Part shown: piece after piece, positions 14,031-18,978 of the stretch
How the letters are laid out: each line of letters begins with the position of its first letter
Numbering within the stretch: position 1 is the stretch's first letter
Assembly: GCF_009914755.1 (NCBI RefSeq)
Contig: NC_060925.1
Origin: the human T2T-CHM13v2.0 reference genome, Homo sapiens
Reading direction: 5' to 3' (one strand)
Length of the DNA stretch: 64,000 bases
Notes under the pieces: model-generated
The model's input: the letters and a program-made list of their open reading frames with translations, nothing else
Told to the model about the DNA's origin: nothing
The model's database searches: none
Translations under genes and position numbers: made by a program

Positions 14031-16415
14031 CTTCAAGGAGAAAGACTATAAATTATTTAAAGAAAAGCTTTATGGAGAACTAATGCTGCTGGAACACAAA
14101 TATTAAGTTAATGTAAACTACATCTACTGGAACATACAATATAATCTTATTTTGTAACTGTCTACTATCTTATAGCTAAAAATAATTTTCCTTCTTCTTC
14201 TGTAAAACTTCTCATTTTCACATGTACTTTTACTGTGAGTTACAAATTAAATGTACTATGATACTCCAGAAATATTATAGCAAAATAGTAAATCAAAAGG
14301 CTATAGGAAATAACTTACGTGCCAGACTACTATTAAACCTCTGTACCAGCACAAACAGCTGCTATAATAATTTTTTCTGAATACCTATTTACCTCCCCAA
14401 ACTATAAAGATAAATTGGTTTGAATATATTTGTTATATAAATCCTTAGTCCTACAAGCTCTCCTGAGGACTGAGCCAGAAATATTCTCATGCACAGACTT
14501 AGAGGAATTTATTCTTAGCCTCAAAACTTCACCTGAAATCAGTTTAAAGGGGCTTCAAAAAAGACTTTACCTGATATTCCAGATATCAGGTAAGAACTAA
14601 TTCCTAGAAACTGAGAAGCAGGAGCTCTAATAAAACTGCTATTTTAGCTCCCTATAGGGAAGAGAAATCAACAGAAACACCCAGTAACATACTGCAATAT
14701 AAATAAATATCATATCTTCTCTTTATCCAAGTGGTGGAAAAAGGAGACCGAAACAGCTATTCTATTATAAATTTTCAAATACAAAATACATTTCCTAATC
14801 ACAAGATTGTAACACTACAAACAGGTGTCTTTAAATAGGACAGTTCCAACAGTCATAAAAATGGTAATGAGAGGCAGTTATATGAAGCATTTTATGATAT
14901 TTTGTTTAACTCCTTGGATATCAAACGCATAGTAGGTGCCAGGCACTATGCACTAGAGATACAGCAGTGAAAGAAAAAAAAAAAAAAAAAAAACAGGAAA
15001 AATCTCTACTCCTATAAAACTGTTATTCTAGTGAGATAAAAAATTTAAAAATAAATAATATGTCAGTGCTAGAAAGAAAAACAGTAGAACCATTCATTCC
15101 ATTTGCCCTGAGTGGTACCTTTTCACACATTTTGTTTTGGCAAAAATATTATTAGCATACCCCTTTACTCTCAAAACATACTGGTGTACAAGATACAGAT
15201 CTAAAGATAATAGAACAGAATTGAGACATTGACCAAAGAGGGGTGCTGTTTTATATATGTTGGTAAGAGAAGGCCTCTCTGATTATGACAAATCTGAGGA
15301 GTGACTGGAAATAAGTGAGAGAGCAAGCCATATACACATCTGGAGGAAGAGCTTTTCAGGCAGTACATTTGTGGCAGTATAGTGAGAGAACATCTGTGGT
15401 GCACTTACGGGGGTGTGTGTGTGTGTGTGTCTGTAGATGAAAATCTGCAAACCTTCAGTGAAAGAAGATGAAAATCCAGTTTCAACAGAAACTCTATGAA
15501 ATAGAAAACTTTTTCATTCTCTTTCTTGCCTAAAAGTGGTTCCCAGGGTATACATTAGGCATAACTTATTTTGTTCTGGTAGATTCCAGAATTAAAACCA
15601 TTTCCTTGAAGAGGAAACCTTCTCTATGAATGTAAAATTGCCCTATTATGGCTTTTAATATCATGGGCATTTAATATAATTGTATTAATTTATGTAATAT
15701 AATTATATAACTAATTTATTAAATTATAATACATATAGTTAATATATATCTCCCTAGAGCCTGAGGTGATTCTGGGTCCCTGGAGATTCCTTAGAGGGGC
15801 ATATAGGGTATGAAATAGAATTGGAAAGTTCTATAATAATACTAATGTACTGACACTAATAATACATCACCAATAATAATAAACAAGGAACATTTTAAGT
15901 AATTAGTATGTCCAAGTGAGAGGTGAAGCCAGCTGGACTCCCTGGGTCAAGTGGGGACTTGGAGAACTTTTGTGTCTAACTAAAGGATTGTAAATGCACC
16001 AAGCAGCACTCTGTAAAAACGCACCAATCAGTGCTGTGTCTAGCTAAAGGATTGTAAATGCACCAATCAGCACTCTGTAAAGACACACCAATCAGCACTC
16101 TGTCTAGCTAAAGGACTGCGAATGCACCAATCAGCACTCTAAAATCGCACCAATCAGCACTCTGTGTCTAGCTAAAGGATTGTGAATGCACCAATCAGCA
16201 CTCTGTAAAAATGCACCAATCAGCACTCTTGGTCTAGCTAAAGCATTGTAAACGCACCAATCAGCACTCTGTAAAAACACACCGCTCAGTGCTCTGCATC
16301 TAGCTGAAGGATTGTGAATGCATCAAGCAGCACTCTGTAAAAACGCACCAATCAGCACTCTGGGTCTAGCTAAAGGATCGTAAATGCACCAATCAGCACT
16401 CTGTAAAAACGCACC

Positions 16416-18620
16416 GAGAGTTCCAAGCCCACGGCCCCGGTCGCGGCCTCGCCGCCCTCCCGCGCCCCGCACCGGGAGCGGGCCTAGAGCACTCGCCTCG
16501 CCCCTCCGCGAGCAGGGCTCTGGCGCCCGCCCCTGTCCGCACCGCTGGCAGCCTGAAGAGAGTCGCTGGCCATGGTCGCTGCTAGGTAGGATATATCTGC
16601 ATCTTGAAAGGAAGATAAAACAAAAGCCTTCTTTGGAATAGATGGATTTTTGTCACTTTCTGTGTGAACTAAAGTGATTCAATGTCTCTTTTGGATTGCT
16701 TCTGCACTTCAAGAACACAAGATGAATCACTCAGACCTGAAAAACAGTCTGAAACCAGTATCCATCAATACTTGGTTGATGAGCCAACCCTTTCCTGGTC
16801 ACCTCCATCCACTAGAGCCAGTGAAGTACTATGTTCCACCAACGTTTCTCACTACGAGCTCCAAGTAGAAACAGGAAGAGGATTTGACAACTTGACTTCT
16901 GTCCATCTTGCATGGCATACTCCCACGGGAACACTGGTAACTATAAAAATTACAAATCTGGAAAACTGCAATGAAGAACGCCTGAAAGCTTTACAGAAAG
17001 CCGTGATTCTATCCCACTTTTTCCGGCATCCCAATATTACAACTTACTGGACAGTTTTCACTGTTGGCAGCTGGCTTTGGGTTATTTCTCCATTTATGGC
17101 CTATGGTTCAGCAAGTCAACTCTTGAGGACCTGTTTTCCTGAAGGAATGAGTGAAACTTTAATAAGAAACATTATCTTTGGAGCTGTGAGAGGGTTGAAC
17201 TATCTGTACCAAAATGGCTGTATTCACAGGAGTATTAAAGCCAGCCATATCCTCATTTCTGGTGATGGCCTAGTGACCCTCTCTGGCCTGTCCCATCTGC
17301 ATAGTTTGGTTAAGCATGGACAGAGGCATAGGGCTGTGTATGATTTCCCACAGTTCAGCACATCAGTGCAGCCGTGGCTGAGTCCAGAACTACTGAGACA
17401 GGATTTACATGGGTATAATGTGAAGTCAGATATTTACAGTGTTGGGATTACAGCATGTGAATTAGCCAGTGGGCAGGTGCCTTTCCAGGACATGCATAGA
17501 ACTCAGATGCTGTTACAGAAACTGAAAGGTCCTCCTTATAGCCCATTGGATATCAGTATTTTCCCTCAATCAGAATCCAGAATGAAAAATTCCCAGTCAG
17601 GTGTAGACTCTGGAATTGGAGAAAGTGTGCTTGTCTCCAGTGGAACTCACACAGTAAATAGTGACCGATTACACACACCATCCTCAAAAACTTTCTCTCC
17701 TGCCTTCTTTAGCTTGGTACAGCTCTGTTTGCAACAAGATCCTGAGAAAAGGCCATCAGCAAGCAGTTTATTGTCCCATGTTTTCTTCAAACAGATGAAA
17801 GAAGAAAGCCAGGATTCAATACTTTCACGGTTGCCTCCTGCTTATAACAAGCCATCAATACCATTGCCTCCAGTGTTACCTTGGACTGAGCCAGAATGTG
17901 ATTTTCCTGATGAAAAAGACTCATACTTGGAATTCTAGGGCTGCCAAATCATTTCATGTCCTATATACTTGACACTTTCTCCTTGCTGCTTTTTCTTCTG
18001 TATTTCTAGGTACAAATACCAGAATTATACTTGAAAATACAGTTGGTGCACTGGAGAATCTATTATTTAAAACCACTCTGTTCAAAGGGGCACCAGTTTG
18101 TAGTCCCTCTGTTTTGCACAGAGTACTATGACAAGGAAACATCAGAATTACCAATCTAGCTAGTGTCATTTATTCTGGAATTTTTTTCTAAGCTGTGACT
18201 AACTCTTTTTATCTCTCAATATAATTTTTGAGCCAGTTAATTTTTTTCAGTATTTTGCTGTTCCTTGGGAATGAGCCCTCAGAGGACAGTGCTTCCAAGT
18301 ACATCTTCTTCTCCCAGATTCTCTGGCCTTTTTAATGAGCTATTGTTAAACCAACAGGCTAGTTTATCTTACATCAGACCCTTTTCTGGTAGAGGGAAAA
18401 TGTTTGTGCTTTCCTTTTTTCTTCTGTTAATACTTATGGTAACACCTAACTGAGCCTCACTCACATTAAATGATTCACTTGAAATATATACAGAAATTGT
18501 AATTTGCTTTTTTTTTTAAAAAGGGGGCTAAAGTAACACTTTCCTACTTTGTAAATTATAGATCTTAAATTCATGCACCCCGTGGGAGCTCAATAAAGAT
18601 ATACTGAATTGAGAAAAAAA
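16416..18620 (+). pseudogene. Processed (intronless) full-length retrocopy of STRADB mRNA: 5' UTR, CDS, 3' UTR, polyA
   Basis: No introns. AATAAA at 18592-18597 and an A-tract at 18614-18625. TSD AAAAACGCACC (16405-16415) / AAAAACACACC (18621-18631). L1 endonuclease-like site TTTTT/AC on the bottom strand. Confidence 0.95.
16682..17938 (+). CDS. STRADB: Intact 418-aa ORF of the STRADB retrocopy (STE20-related pseudokinase adaptor beta-like); expression unknown
   Basis: Same length as, and near-identical to, STRADB as I recall it. STRAD pseudokinase signatures VTIK, HRS (for HRD) and GLS (for DFG). Ends SYLEF instead of SYWEF. The symbol names the parent gene, not this locus. Confidence 0.85.
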   Translation: MSLLDCFCTSRTQDESLRPEKQSETSIHQYLVDEPTLSWSPPSTRASEVLCSTNVSHYELQVETGRGFDNLTSVHLAWHTPTGTLVTIKITNLENCNEERLKALQKAVILSHFFRHPNITTYWTVFTVGSWLWVISPFMAYGSASQLLRTCFPEGMSETLIRNIIFGAVRGLNYLYQNGCIHRSIKASHILISGDGLVTLSGLSHLHSLVKHGQRHRAVYDFPQFSTSVQPWLSPELLRQDLHGYNVKSDIYSVGITACELASGQVPFQDMHRTQMLLQKLKGPPYSPLDISIFPQSESRMKNSQSGVDSGIGESVLVSSGTHTVNSDRLHTPSSKTFSPAFFSLVQLCLQQDPEKRPSASSLLSHVFFKQMKEESQDSILSRLPPAYNKPSIPLPPVLPWTEPECDFPDEKDSYLEF

Positions 18621-18978
18621 AAAAACACACCAATCAGCGCTCTGTGTCTAGCTAAAGGTTTGTAAACACACCAATCAGCACTCTGTAAAATGGACCAATC
18701 AGTGCTCTGTAAAATGGACCAATCAGAAGGATGTGGGCGGGGACAAATAAAGGAACAAAAGGTGGCCACCCCAGCCAGCAGCGGCAACCCGCTCAGGTCC
18801 CCTTCCACGCTGTGGAAGCTTTGTTCTTTTGCTCTTCACAATAAATCTTGCTGCTGCTCACTCTTTGGGTCCATGCCACCTTTAAGAGCTGTAACACTCC
18901 CCGCAAAGGTCCACAGCTTCATTCTTGAAGTCAGCAAGACCAAGAACCCACCAGAAGGAACCAACTCTGGACACATCT

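What the first reader, a model, noticed from the sequence alone, without database searches (positions are those of the whole stretch)
15917..18975. Full-length STRADB retrocopy with an intact ORF inserted inside an LTR12 enhancer: candidate LTR-driven retrogene
Seen: a spliced STRADB cDNA with polyA and an 11-bp TSD sits in the U3 of the ERV9 5' LTR, in the LTR's sense orientation. It lies directly downstream of ~500 bp holding roughly ten CCAAT repeats. All 418 codons are open, and there are two polyA signals (own at 18592, LTR at 18840). The 3' LTR lacks the insert, so it arrived by L1-mediated retrotransposition after proviral integration, not by viral transduction. Established: LTR12 U3 repeats bind NF-Y, are active in male germ cells and are induced by HDAC/DNMT inhibitors; STRAD proteins activate LKB1 together with MO25. 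Inference: the copy landed with a ready-made enhancer/promoter inside a testis gene and could be transcribed antisense to SPATA6. Caveats: STRADB pseudogenes are already catalogued as far as I recall, and the open ORF may simply reflect a young age.
Basis: partly seen in the sequence, partly recalled or inferred. Interest (0 to 1): 0.85.

Follow-up and report, generated by a model that had tools for sequence, protein, structure and literature searches.

The report
Young STRADB processed pseudogene inside ERV9 LTR
This is a catalogued, roughly ten-million-year-old dead copy of the STRADB gene that landed inside an old retroviral repeat; its reading frame is still open mainly because it is young, and nothing in the sequence suggests it is a working gene.

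Summary
A full-length, intron-free STRADB copy (16417-18612, RefSeq pseudogene LOC644462) has a 418-codon open frame (16682-17938). It ends in an A-run and is flanked by an 11-bp target-site duplication (10 of 11 bases match). It sits in sense orientation in the U3 repeats of the 5' LTR of a degraded ERV9 provirus (15917-25572). The 3' LTR lacks the insert.

The "LTR-driven retrogene" reading is not supported.
- **Promoter position:** the LTR's GC box (18735), TATA-like AATAAA (18746) and start-site motif (18774-18785) all lie downstream of the retrocopy. Only 10 CCAAT boxes lie upstream of it.
- **No sign of selection:** with an older chr7 retrocopy as outgroup, the chr1 copy's own branch has 10 coding changes, 8 replacement and 2 silent. 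This gives omega of about 0.8-1.7; omega of 0.2 or less is rejected.
- **Damaged motif:** W416L destroys the C-terminal WEF motif that binds MO25. Other changes hit residues shared with STRADA.
- **Methylation signature:** CpGs decayed 13 times faster than other sites, including in the carried CpG-rich 5' end.
- **Open frame by chance:** at about 1% divergence, an intact frame is expected with probability of roughly 0.14-0.29.

Expression could not be tested here. Verdict: an ordinary young processed pseudogene that is already annotated.

The parts
15913..15916 (.). CAAG, 5' copy of the 4-bp target-site duplication of the ERV9 provirus (3' copy at 25573-25576)
   Evidence: read
15917..16415 (+). 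Left part of the 5' LTR: U3 tandem enhancer-type repeats holding 10 CCAAT boxes (16024-16389)
   Evidence: repeat anatomy as described in PMC11853044
16405..16415 (+). Upstream copy of the retrocopy's 11-bp target-site duplication (AAAAACGCACC)
16416..16416 (+). Single untemplated G between the duplication and the first cDNA base. Reading it as cap-derived is from recall.
   Evidence: the parent's upstream base is C
16417..18612 (+). Processed STRADB retrocopy (RefSeq LOC644462), 12 parental exon blocks joined; 29 mismatches and 3 indel events against the parent mRNA
   Evidence: hub annotation
16417..16586 (+). Carried exon-1 piece: GC 0.76, CpG observed/expected 0.88; 21 of the parent's 25 CpGs kept; all 4 differences are CpG transitions
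16572..16589 (+). New 5-codon upstream ORF, created by the CpG-to-CpA change at 16572 (gccATGg)
16682..17938 (+). Open 418-codon frame with a Pkinase (pseudokinase) domain. Own-branch replacements are V14D, I64T, R78W, Y151C, L165I, L383R, S394P and W416L, so the C-terminus reads LEF instead of WEF.
18592..18597 (+). The retrocopy's own AATAAA polyadenylation signal
18614..18625 (+). Run of 12 A (remnant poly(A) tail; the last 5 overlap the downstream duplication)
18621..18631 (+). Downstream copy of the target-site duplication (AAAAACACACC)
18632..18976 (+). Right part of the 5' LTR: CCAAT boxes at 18630, 18671, 18695 and 18719 (the first overlaps the last two bases of the downstream target-site duplication), GC box 18735, TATA-like AATAAA 18746, start-site motif GCCAGCAGCGGC 18774-18785, LTR poly(A) signal 18840
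   Evidence: motif roles from PMC11853044
18977..24809 (+). Degraded ERV9 interior: gag p30 (20917-21648), protease (21903-22439), RNase H (22228-22953) and an env TM piece (24038-24382). All are fragmentary stop-to-stop frames.
24810..25572 (+). 3' LTR without the STRADB insert; it serves as the empty-site reference

Best explanation
This is an ordinary, young, neutrally decaying processed pseudogene of STRADB, already annotated as LOC644462.

How it arose (inferred from the anatomy): a capped, fully spliced, polyadenylated STRADB mRNA was reverse-transcribed by the L1 machinery. It entered an A-rich site in the U3 repeats of the 5' LTR of an ERV9 provirus that was already old. This happened roughly 5-15 million years ago.

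What it did to the LTR (shown by the sequence): the insertion moved 10 of the LTR's 14 CCAAT boxes 2.2 kb away from the LTR's own core promoter. That promoter lies downstream of the insert and points away from it.

Why the frame is open: too little time has passed for a stop or frameshift to be likely.

What the copy has gathered since: mostly amino-acid-changing substitutions, including loss of the MO25-binding WEF tail, and methylation-type CpG decay.
For: 1. Retroposition hallmarks. Twelve exon blocks are joined at GT-AG intron positions of the parent. There is an A-run, an 11-bp duplication matching at 10 of 11 bases, and an A-rich target. The 3' LTR is uninterrupted.

2. Youth. The copy differs from the parent mRNA at 29 of about 2190 aligned bases (1.3%). 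Its own branch carries 20 polarised changes in 2080 bases (0.96%, 95% interval 0.59-1.49%). The two LTRs differ at 29 of 355 aligned bases in the non-repetitive right part, about 8%.

3. No purifying selection. The own-branch coding changes are 8 replacement and 2 silent, plus 1 unpolarised silent. Omega is 0.8-1.7. Omega of 0.2 is rejected at p = 0.003-0.027 and omega of 0.1 at p of 0.0011 or less. Neutrality is not rejected (P = 0.50-0.85). Own-branch rates are similar in the coding part (10 of 1257) and the UTRs (10 of 823); Fisher p = 0.36.

4. Damage at conserved places. W416L turns the C-terminal WEF into LEF. The WEF motif of STRADA binds MO25, and mutating it abolishes binary binding (PMC2686265, passages). 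I64T, R78W, L165I and L383R, plus H176Y, hit residues identical between the parent and STRADA in the PDB alignment.

5. CpG decay. CpG bases changed at 13 times the non-CpG rate. In the carried exon-1 piece, 4 of 50 CpG bases changed against 0.35 expected at the non-CpG rate (P = 5e-4). Elsewhere in the copy, 3 of 26 CpG bases changed (counts). This is the pattern of germline-methylated, silent DNA.

6. Open frame by chance. Simulation gives P = 0.59-0.62 of no premature stop with the start codon kept, after 10-11 substitutions. Multiplied by P = 0.23-0.48 of no frameshifting indel (assumed indel:substitution ratios of 1:6 to 1:12), this gives about 0.14-0.29.

7. Promoter anatomy. The GC box, TATA-like box and start-site motif at 18735-18785 lie after the insert.

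8. RefSeq lists it as a curated pseudogene with the same ends (hub table).
Against: - The frame is fully open and the start codon and its context are unchanged from the parent.
- The copy carries a 170-bp piece that is still CpG-rich (GC 0.76, observed/expected 0.88). It lies 25 bases after the last of 10 NF-Y-type CCAAT boxes. Such a piece could in principle nucleate a TATA-less promoter.
- With only 10-11 coding changes the selection test is weak. Omega of 0.5 is not rejected (p = 0.09-0.34).
- Polarisation rests on a single outgroup, and that outgroup is probably wrong at H176Y.
- LOC644462 appears once in a PBMC array list beside erythroid genes. ERV9 LTR enhancers are reported to be active in erythroid progenitors. 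However, 60-mer array probes cannot separate the copy from its 98.7% identical, erythroid-expressed parent.
- No RNA, methylation, population or ape data could be consulted.
Confidence: 0.86

Rival explanations
1. Expressed protein-coding retrogene. The upstream U3 CCAAT array (NF-Y) acts together with the carried CpG-rich STRADB 5' end as a new promoter. The resulting transcript, in germ cells, erythroid cells or drug-treated cells, would be translated into a STRADB-like pseudokinase.
For: - Open 418-codon frame with an unchanged start context.
- Ten CCAAT boxes directly upstream, in sense orientation.
- The carried piece is still CpG-rich.
- Its own poly(A) signal is intact at 18592.
- LTR12 repeats are reported to work as enhancers as well as promoters (PMC11853044, passages).
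Against: - The LTR core promoter and start-site motif lie downstream of the insert.
- Replacement to silent changes are 8:2 on the copy's own branch.
- The WEF motif is lost.
- CpG decay is methylation-type, including in the putative promoter piece.
- A new strong-context upstream ATG sits at 16572.
- No paper among those searched links STRADB or SPATA6 with LTR12 (0 hits each).
Confidence: 0.05
2. Non-coding role. The sequence matters as RNA. One route is antisense: it is part of SPATA6 intron 3 pre-mRNA in testis, giving 2.2 kb complementary to STRADB mRNA as a possible source of small RNAs. The other route is a sense decoy transcript.
For: - The copy lies antisense inside SPATA6 (hub table).
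- It is 98.7% identical to the parent mRNA.
- Pseudogene-derived antisense small RNAs in germ cells are known in general (recalled, not checked here).
Against: - Nothing in the sequence distinguishes this copy from any other intronic antisense pseudogene.
- Substitution rates are even across UTRs and coding part, as under neutrality.
- No expression data were available.
Confidence: 0.06
3. Viral transduction: the ERV9 virus captured the STRADB cDNA in its U3 region before it integrated.
For: The insert lies inside U3 in the LTR's sense orientation.
Against: - A U3 passenger would be copied into both LTRs, yet the 3' LTR lacks it.
- The insert has its own 11-bp duplication of LTR sequence and an A-run.
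- Its own branch is about four times less diverged than each LTR.
Confidence: 0.01

Closest known systems
L1-mediated processed pseudogenes (retrocopies) with chance-intact ORFs
   Same: Intron-free full-length cDNA, A-run, an 11-bp target-site duplication beginning in an A-rich site, no parental promoter, and neutral substitution pattern.
   Different: Nothing essential. The only unusual point is the landing site, inside the U3 repeats of an ERV9 5' LTR.
STRADBP1 (equated with LOC389599 in PMC13040416); taken here to be the chr7 STRADB retrocopy, a link no call confirmed
   Same: The chr7 copy derives from the same parent and starts at the same first base. It too is a retroposed cDNA.
   Different: The chr7 copy is much older (5.6% own-branch divergence). 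It has stops, a 35-base gap over the start codon, and used an earlier poly(A) site. The chr1 copy is about 1% diverged and still open.
LTR12/ERV9-promoted host transcripts (the review gives male germ-cell p63 isoform and DHRS2 as examples)
   Same: An LTR12-family LTR with CCAAT repeats, GC box, TATA-like box and start-site motif lies at the locus, in the same orientation as the coding sequence.
   Different: In the known cases the host exon lies downstream of the LTR's start site at the U3-R border. Here the coding sequence lies upstream of that site, inside U3, so the LTR promoter cannot read into it.
STRADB / STRADA pseudokinases, the LKB1-MO25 adaptors
   Same: 98% protein identity to the parent (10 differences in 418 residues). 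Pkinase domain. Best solved relatives are STRADA chains at E = 1e-98.
   Different: The C-terminal WEF motif reads LEF. Residues shared by the parent and STRADA are replaced: I64T beside the glycine-rich loop, and R78W.

Membership tests
L1-mediated processed pseudogene | All parental introns are precisely absent | tested here: met
   Twelve exon blocks are joined. All 11 parental introns have GT-AG ends: 10 by script, 1 by eye.
L1-mediated processed pseudogene | 3' poly(A) tract following the parental poly(A) signal | tested here: met
   AATAAA at 18592 and an A-run at 18614-18625.
L1-mediated processed pseudogene | Flanking target-site duplication at an A-rich (TTTT/A-type) site | tested here: met
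   11 bp, matching at 10 of 11 bases, starting AAAAA. The L1 cleavage consensus is recalled, not taken from a call.
Functional retrogene | Intact ORF | tested here: met
   418 codons open, but the chance expectation is about 0.14-0.29.
Functional retrogene | Purifying selection on the copy's own branch (dN/dS below 1) | tested here: not met
   8 replacement to 2-3 silent changes, omega 0.8-1.7. Power is low: omega of 0.5 is not excluded.
Functional retrogene | Key functional motifs of the parent are kept | tested here: not met
   WEF has become LEF (W416L), and residues shared with STRADA are replaced.
Functional retrogene | Transcription and translation of the copy itself | not testable with these tools
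   No RNA-seq, CAGE, Ribo-seq or proteomics were available. The one array mention cannot separate the copy from its parent.
Functional retrogene | ORF conserved in orthologues of other species | not testable with these tools
LTR12-promoted gene | Coding sequence lies downstream of the LTR start site (U3-R border) in sense orientation | tested here: not met
   The start-site motif at 18774-18785, the TATA-like box at 18746 and the GC box at 18735 all lie after the retrocopy's end at 18612.
LTR12-promoted gene | LTR-initiated chimeric transcripts observed | not testable with these tools
   No transcript data. Two full-text searches gave 0 papers. Supplements were not searched.
ERV9 / LTR12 provirus | Two LTRs in the same orientation, with CCAAT tandem repeats and TG...CA ends, flanking gag-pro-pol-env remnants, plus a short target duplication | tested here: met
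   LTRs at 15917-18976 and 24810-25572. CAAG on both flanks. Gag_p30, RVP, RT_RNaseH and TLV_coat hits in + sense. The subfamily was not assigned because no repeat library was at hand.
STRAD pseudokinase | Pseudokinase domain plus a C-terminal WEF motif | tested here: not met
   The domain is present. The terminal motif is LEF, against WEF in the parent.

The most novel reading that the evidence does not exclude
The ten upstream NF-Y-type CCAAT boxes of the split U3, abutting the carried 170-bp CpG-rich STRADB 5' end, form a new TATA-less promoter. It would be active in male germ cells, erythroid progenitors or HDAC/DNMT-inhibitor-treated cells. The transcript would encode a great-ape-specific STRADB variant without the WEF tail, which could bind LKB1 while engaging MO25 differently. 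The same insertion would also have weakened the provirus's own 5' LTR promoter.
Probability: 0.04. Interest if true: 0.55.

Novelty: already known. Interest (0 to 1): 0.12.

Why it matters
The finding matters little as it stands. It is one more young processed pseudogene, already curated in RefSeq, with no sequence sign of selection.

Its practical value is as a caution. The copy is 98.7% identical to STRADB, an erythroid-expressed gene. Array or short-read signals labelled LOC644462 are therefore likely to be cross-mapping from the parent.

If the low-odds reading were true, it would be a clean example of a retrocopy gaining a promoter from a split LTR enhancer array. It would also be a natural WEF-less STRAD variant for studying LKB1 regulation.

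Tried and rejected
- **Viral transduction:** rejected, because the 3' LTR is empty and the insert has its own target-site duplication.
- **Exon identities from the six-frame search:** the values (59-94%) at first suggested an old copy with a surprisingly intact frame. The nucleotide alignment showed 96.8-100% per exon. The low values came from matches running into introns, so the "old but intact" idea was dropped.
- **Literature (main text only; supplements were not searched and may list LTR12 start sites or pseudogene expression):**
  - STRADBP1 or LOC644462 gave 5 papers, all gene lists.
  - STRADB with the retrocopy terms: none of the 15 listed papers held STRADB.
  - STRADB with LTR12 gave 0 papers, and SPATA6 with LTR12 gave 0 papers.
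  - Other pseudogene names gave 3 papers, all for LOC389599.
- **STRADA residue names:** a look for the STRADA residues matching the replaced positions in PMC2686265 found nothing.
- **Array mention of LOC644462:** the PBMC array listing beside erythroid genes is not accepted as evidence of expression, because the platform uses hybridisation probes.
- **No structure prediction, complex prediction or large protein-database search was run.** The family is not in question, and these steps would not change the verdict.

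
Full report
**What is there**

The + strand carries an uninterrupted 418-codon frame at 16682-17938. A six-frame search of the window's own genome with this protein found four relevant things:
- the copy itself;
- exon-by-exon matches on contig C2 at 201.94-201.96 Mb, which is the parent STRADB;
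- a second intron-free copy on C7 at about 151.69 Mb, with stops;
- weaker matches on C17, read here as the paralogue STRADA (a name no call gave; the PDB search shows STRADA as the closest solved relative).

The remaining weaker matches in that table were not followed up.

A nucleotide search with the 5' end found the two upstream parental exons. Aligning window 16417-18612 to 34 kb of parental DNA gave 12 exon blocks at 96.8-100% identity. All 11 removed introns have GT-AG ends in the parent: 10 by script, the last by eye. The rebuilt parental mRNA is 2193 bases and encodes 418 residues ending in WEF.

**Insertion hallmarks**

- The cDNA is preceded by AAAAACGCACC (16405-16415).
- A single G at 16416 follows. 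It matches neither the duplication nor the parent's upstream base.
- The cDNA ends after the parental AATAAA (18592) in a run of 12 A (18614-18625).
- The last five A plus CACACC repeat the target (18621-18631). The two copies match at 10 of 11 bases, and the mismatch is a CpG-to-CpA change.

These are the marks of L1-type target-primed reverse transcription. The L1 cleavage consensus and the reading of the extra G as cap-derived are recalled knowledge. The RefSeq pseudogene LOC644462 has the same ends (hub table).

**The host element**

- The insert splits an LTR at 15917-18976. Its partner at 24810-25572 lacks the insert.
- CAAG lies on both outer flanks.
- Between the LTRs, stop-to-stop frames in + sense hit Gag_p30, RVP, RT_RNaseH and TLV_coat. 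This is therefore a degraded, internally deleted class I provirus.
- The LTR carries the LTR12/ERV9 features listed in the review PMC11853044 (passages read): U3 tandem repeats with CCAAT boxes, an Sp1-type GC box, a TATA-like AATAAA about 30 bases before the start site, and the start-site motif GCCAGCAGTGGC.

In the window these features lie as follows:

| Feature | Position |
|---|---|
| 10 CCAAT boxes, left of the insert | 16024-16389 |
| 4 CCAAT boxes, right of the insert | 18630-18719 |
| GC box | 18735 |
| TATA-like AATAAA | 18746 |
| Start-site motif GCCAGCAGCGGC | 18774-18785 |
| LTR poly(A) signal | 18840 |

**The key anatomical correction**

The LTR's core promoter and start site lie about 150 bases downstream of the retrocopy's A-run and point away from it. 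The retrocopy is therefore not placed behind a "ready-made promoter". It sits inside U3, with only enhancer-type repeats upstream. It has also separated 10 of the 14 CCAAT boxes from the LTR's own promoter by 2.2 kb.

**Age**

- The copy differs from the parental mRNA at 29 positions and three indel events, all of the latter in the 3' UTR.
- With the older chr7 copy as outgroup, 20 substitutions in 2080 polarisable bases fall on the chr1 branch (0.96%, 95% interval 0.59-1.49%). The non-CpG rate is 0.71%.
- Against recalled human-ape divergences, this suggests insertion roughly 5-15 million years ago.
- The two LTRs differ at 29 of 355 aligned bases in their non-repetitive right part, about 8% or 4% per copy. 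The provirus is therefore several times older than the insert.
- Beyond mRNA position 2080 the chr7 copy does not align, because it used an earlier poly(A) site. The calls there are unpolarised, or wrongly polarised.

**Selection**

- On the chr1 branch the coding part has 10 polarised changes. Eight are replacements: V14D, I64T, R78W, Y151C, L165I, L383R, S394P and W416L. Two are silent, and one further silent change is unpolarised.
- With site counts for transition/transversion ratios of 1-4, omega is 0.8-1.7. Neutrality is not rejected (P = 0.50-0.85).
- Omega of 0.2 is rejected at p = 0.003-0.027 and omega of 0.1 at p of 0.0011 or less. Omega of 0.5 is not rejected (p = 0.09-0.34).
- Own-branch rates do not differ between the coding part (10 of 1257) and the UTRs (10 of 823); Fisher p = 0.36.
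- Four changes were assigned to the parent branch: R41P, Y58Y, H176Y and L203L. H176Y is probably mis-polarised. STRADA also has H at the aligned place, so both retrocopies may have changed in parallel. That would make the chr1 count 9:2.

**Functional residues**

- W416L turns the terminal WEF into LEF.
- PMC2686265 (passages read) states that the WEF motif of STRADA binds a pocket on MO25 and that mutating it abolishes the binary interaction. A trimer with LKB1 can still form without it.
- In the phmmer alignment to STRADA chains (E = 1e-98), I64T (next to the glycine-rich loop), R78W, L165I and L383R replace residues that are identical in the parent and STRADA. Y151C does not.
- Pfam still sees a Pkinase domain.

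**CpG test**

- The parent mRNA has 38 CpGs, 25 of them in exon 1.
- On the chr1 branch 7 of 76 CpG bases changed by transition, against 15 of 2117 other bases. That is a 13-fold ratio.
- In the carried exon-1 piece, 4 of 50 CpG bases changed against 0.35 expected at the non-CpG rate (P = 5e-4). This is similar to the 3 of 26 changed elsewhere in the copy (counts).
- This is the signature of DNA methylated in the germline, not of a protected, active CpG-island promoter.
- The piece is still CpG-rich (GC 0.76, observed/expected 0.88), simply because it is young.
- One of these changes created a new strong-context upstream ATG with a 5-codon ORF at 16572-16589.

**Is the open frame surprising?**

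No.
- A simulation of 10-11 substitutions on the inferred ancestral coding sequence used a transition bias of 2 and a CpG factor of 13. It kept the start codon and avoided stops in 59-62% of 20,000 trials.
- With assumed indel:substitution ratios of 1:6 to 1:12, the chance of no frameshift is 0.23-0.48.
- Together this gives about 0.14-0.29.

**Literature**

- LOC644462 occurs once in the main text of the library searched, in a PBMC array gene list beside erythroid genes. The platform is a hybridisation array, which cannot separate a 98.7% identical copy from the parent.
- STRADBP1 is equated with LOC389599 in PMC13040416. I take that to be the chr7 copy, but no call confirmed this.
- No paper held STRADB together with LTR12, or SPATA6 together with LTR12.
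- None of the 15 listed retrocopy papers held STRADB.
- Supplementary tables were not searched and could list this locus.

**What could not be tested**

Transcription, translation, methylation, human polymorphism and ape orthologues were all out of reach. The sequence-only parts of its refutation list came out on the side of an ordinary young pseudogene: dN/dS is near 1 and a key motif is lost.

**Verdict**

It entered the U3 region of an old ERV9 5' LTR, upstream of that LTR's promoter. A small residual chance remains that the split CCAAT array plus the carried CpG-rich 5' end drive some transcription.

Noticed in passing
G000:C7:151690929-151692414 (locus L012, minus strand): A second, older STRADB retrocopy. 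It starts at the same first base as the chr1 copy. It has a 35-base gap over the start codon, in-frame stops, used an earlier poly(A) site, and carries 5.6% own-branch divergence. It is probably the locus called STRADBP1 / LOC389599 in papers.
   Followed up: partly
window 17207 (codon 176): Both retrocopies read TAC (Y) where the parent reads CAC (H). STRADA also has H at the aligned place. This points to a parallel C-to-T change in two independent copies, or a polymorphic or back-mutated parent site. It also shows the limit of polarising with a single outgroup.
   Followed up: partly
window 16572-16589: A CpG-to-CpA change created a new upstream ATG in a strong context (gccATGg), with a 5-codon ORF, in the retrocopy's 5' UTR. 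The parent has no ATG there.
   Followed up: yes
window 20017-20352: Four tandem units of about 80 bp in the ERV9 leader/interior lie under the RefSeq 'silencer' at 20112-20406.
   Followed up: no
window 23214-23407: A purine-rich low-complexity stretch (GA-rich, overlapping 8-14 bp periodicities) inside the proviral interior lies under the RefSeq 'enhancer' at 22751-23438.
   Followed up: no
window 21903-22953: In the provirus the protease hit (21903-22439) is followed almost directly by the RNase H hit (22228-22953). Most of the reverse-transcriptase polymerase region therefore appears to be deleted. The interior is only about 5.8 kb.
   Followed up: partly
window 16384-16641: An 85-codon ATG-started frame begins in the last U3 repeat and runs through the STRADB 5' UTR. 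It is taken as a chance ORF in GC-rich sequence.
   Followed up: no
parent gene, G000:C2 (mRNA position about 1887): The parent STRADB 3' UTR lacks 3 bases (TCT) that both retrocopies keep. This is a deletion on the parental lineage after the chr1 copy was made.
   Followed up: yes
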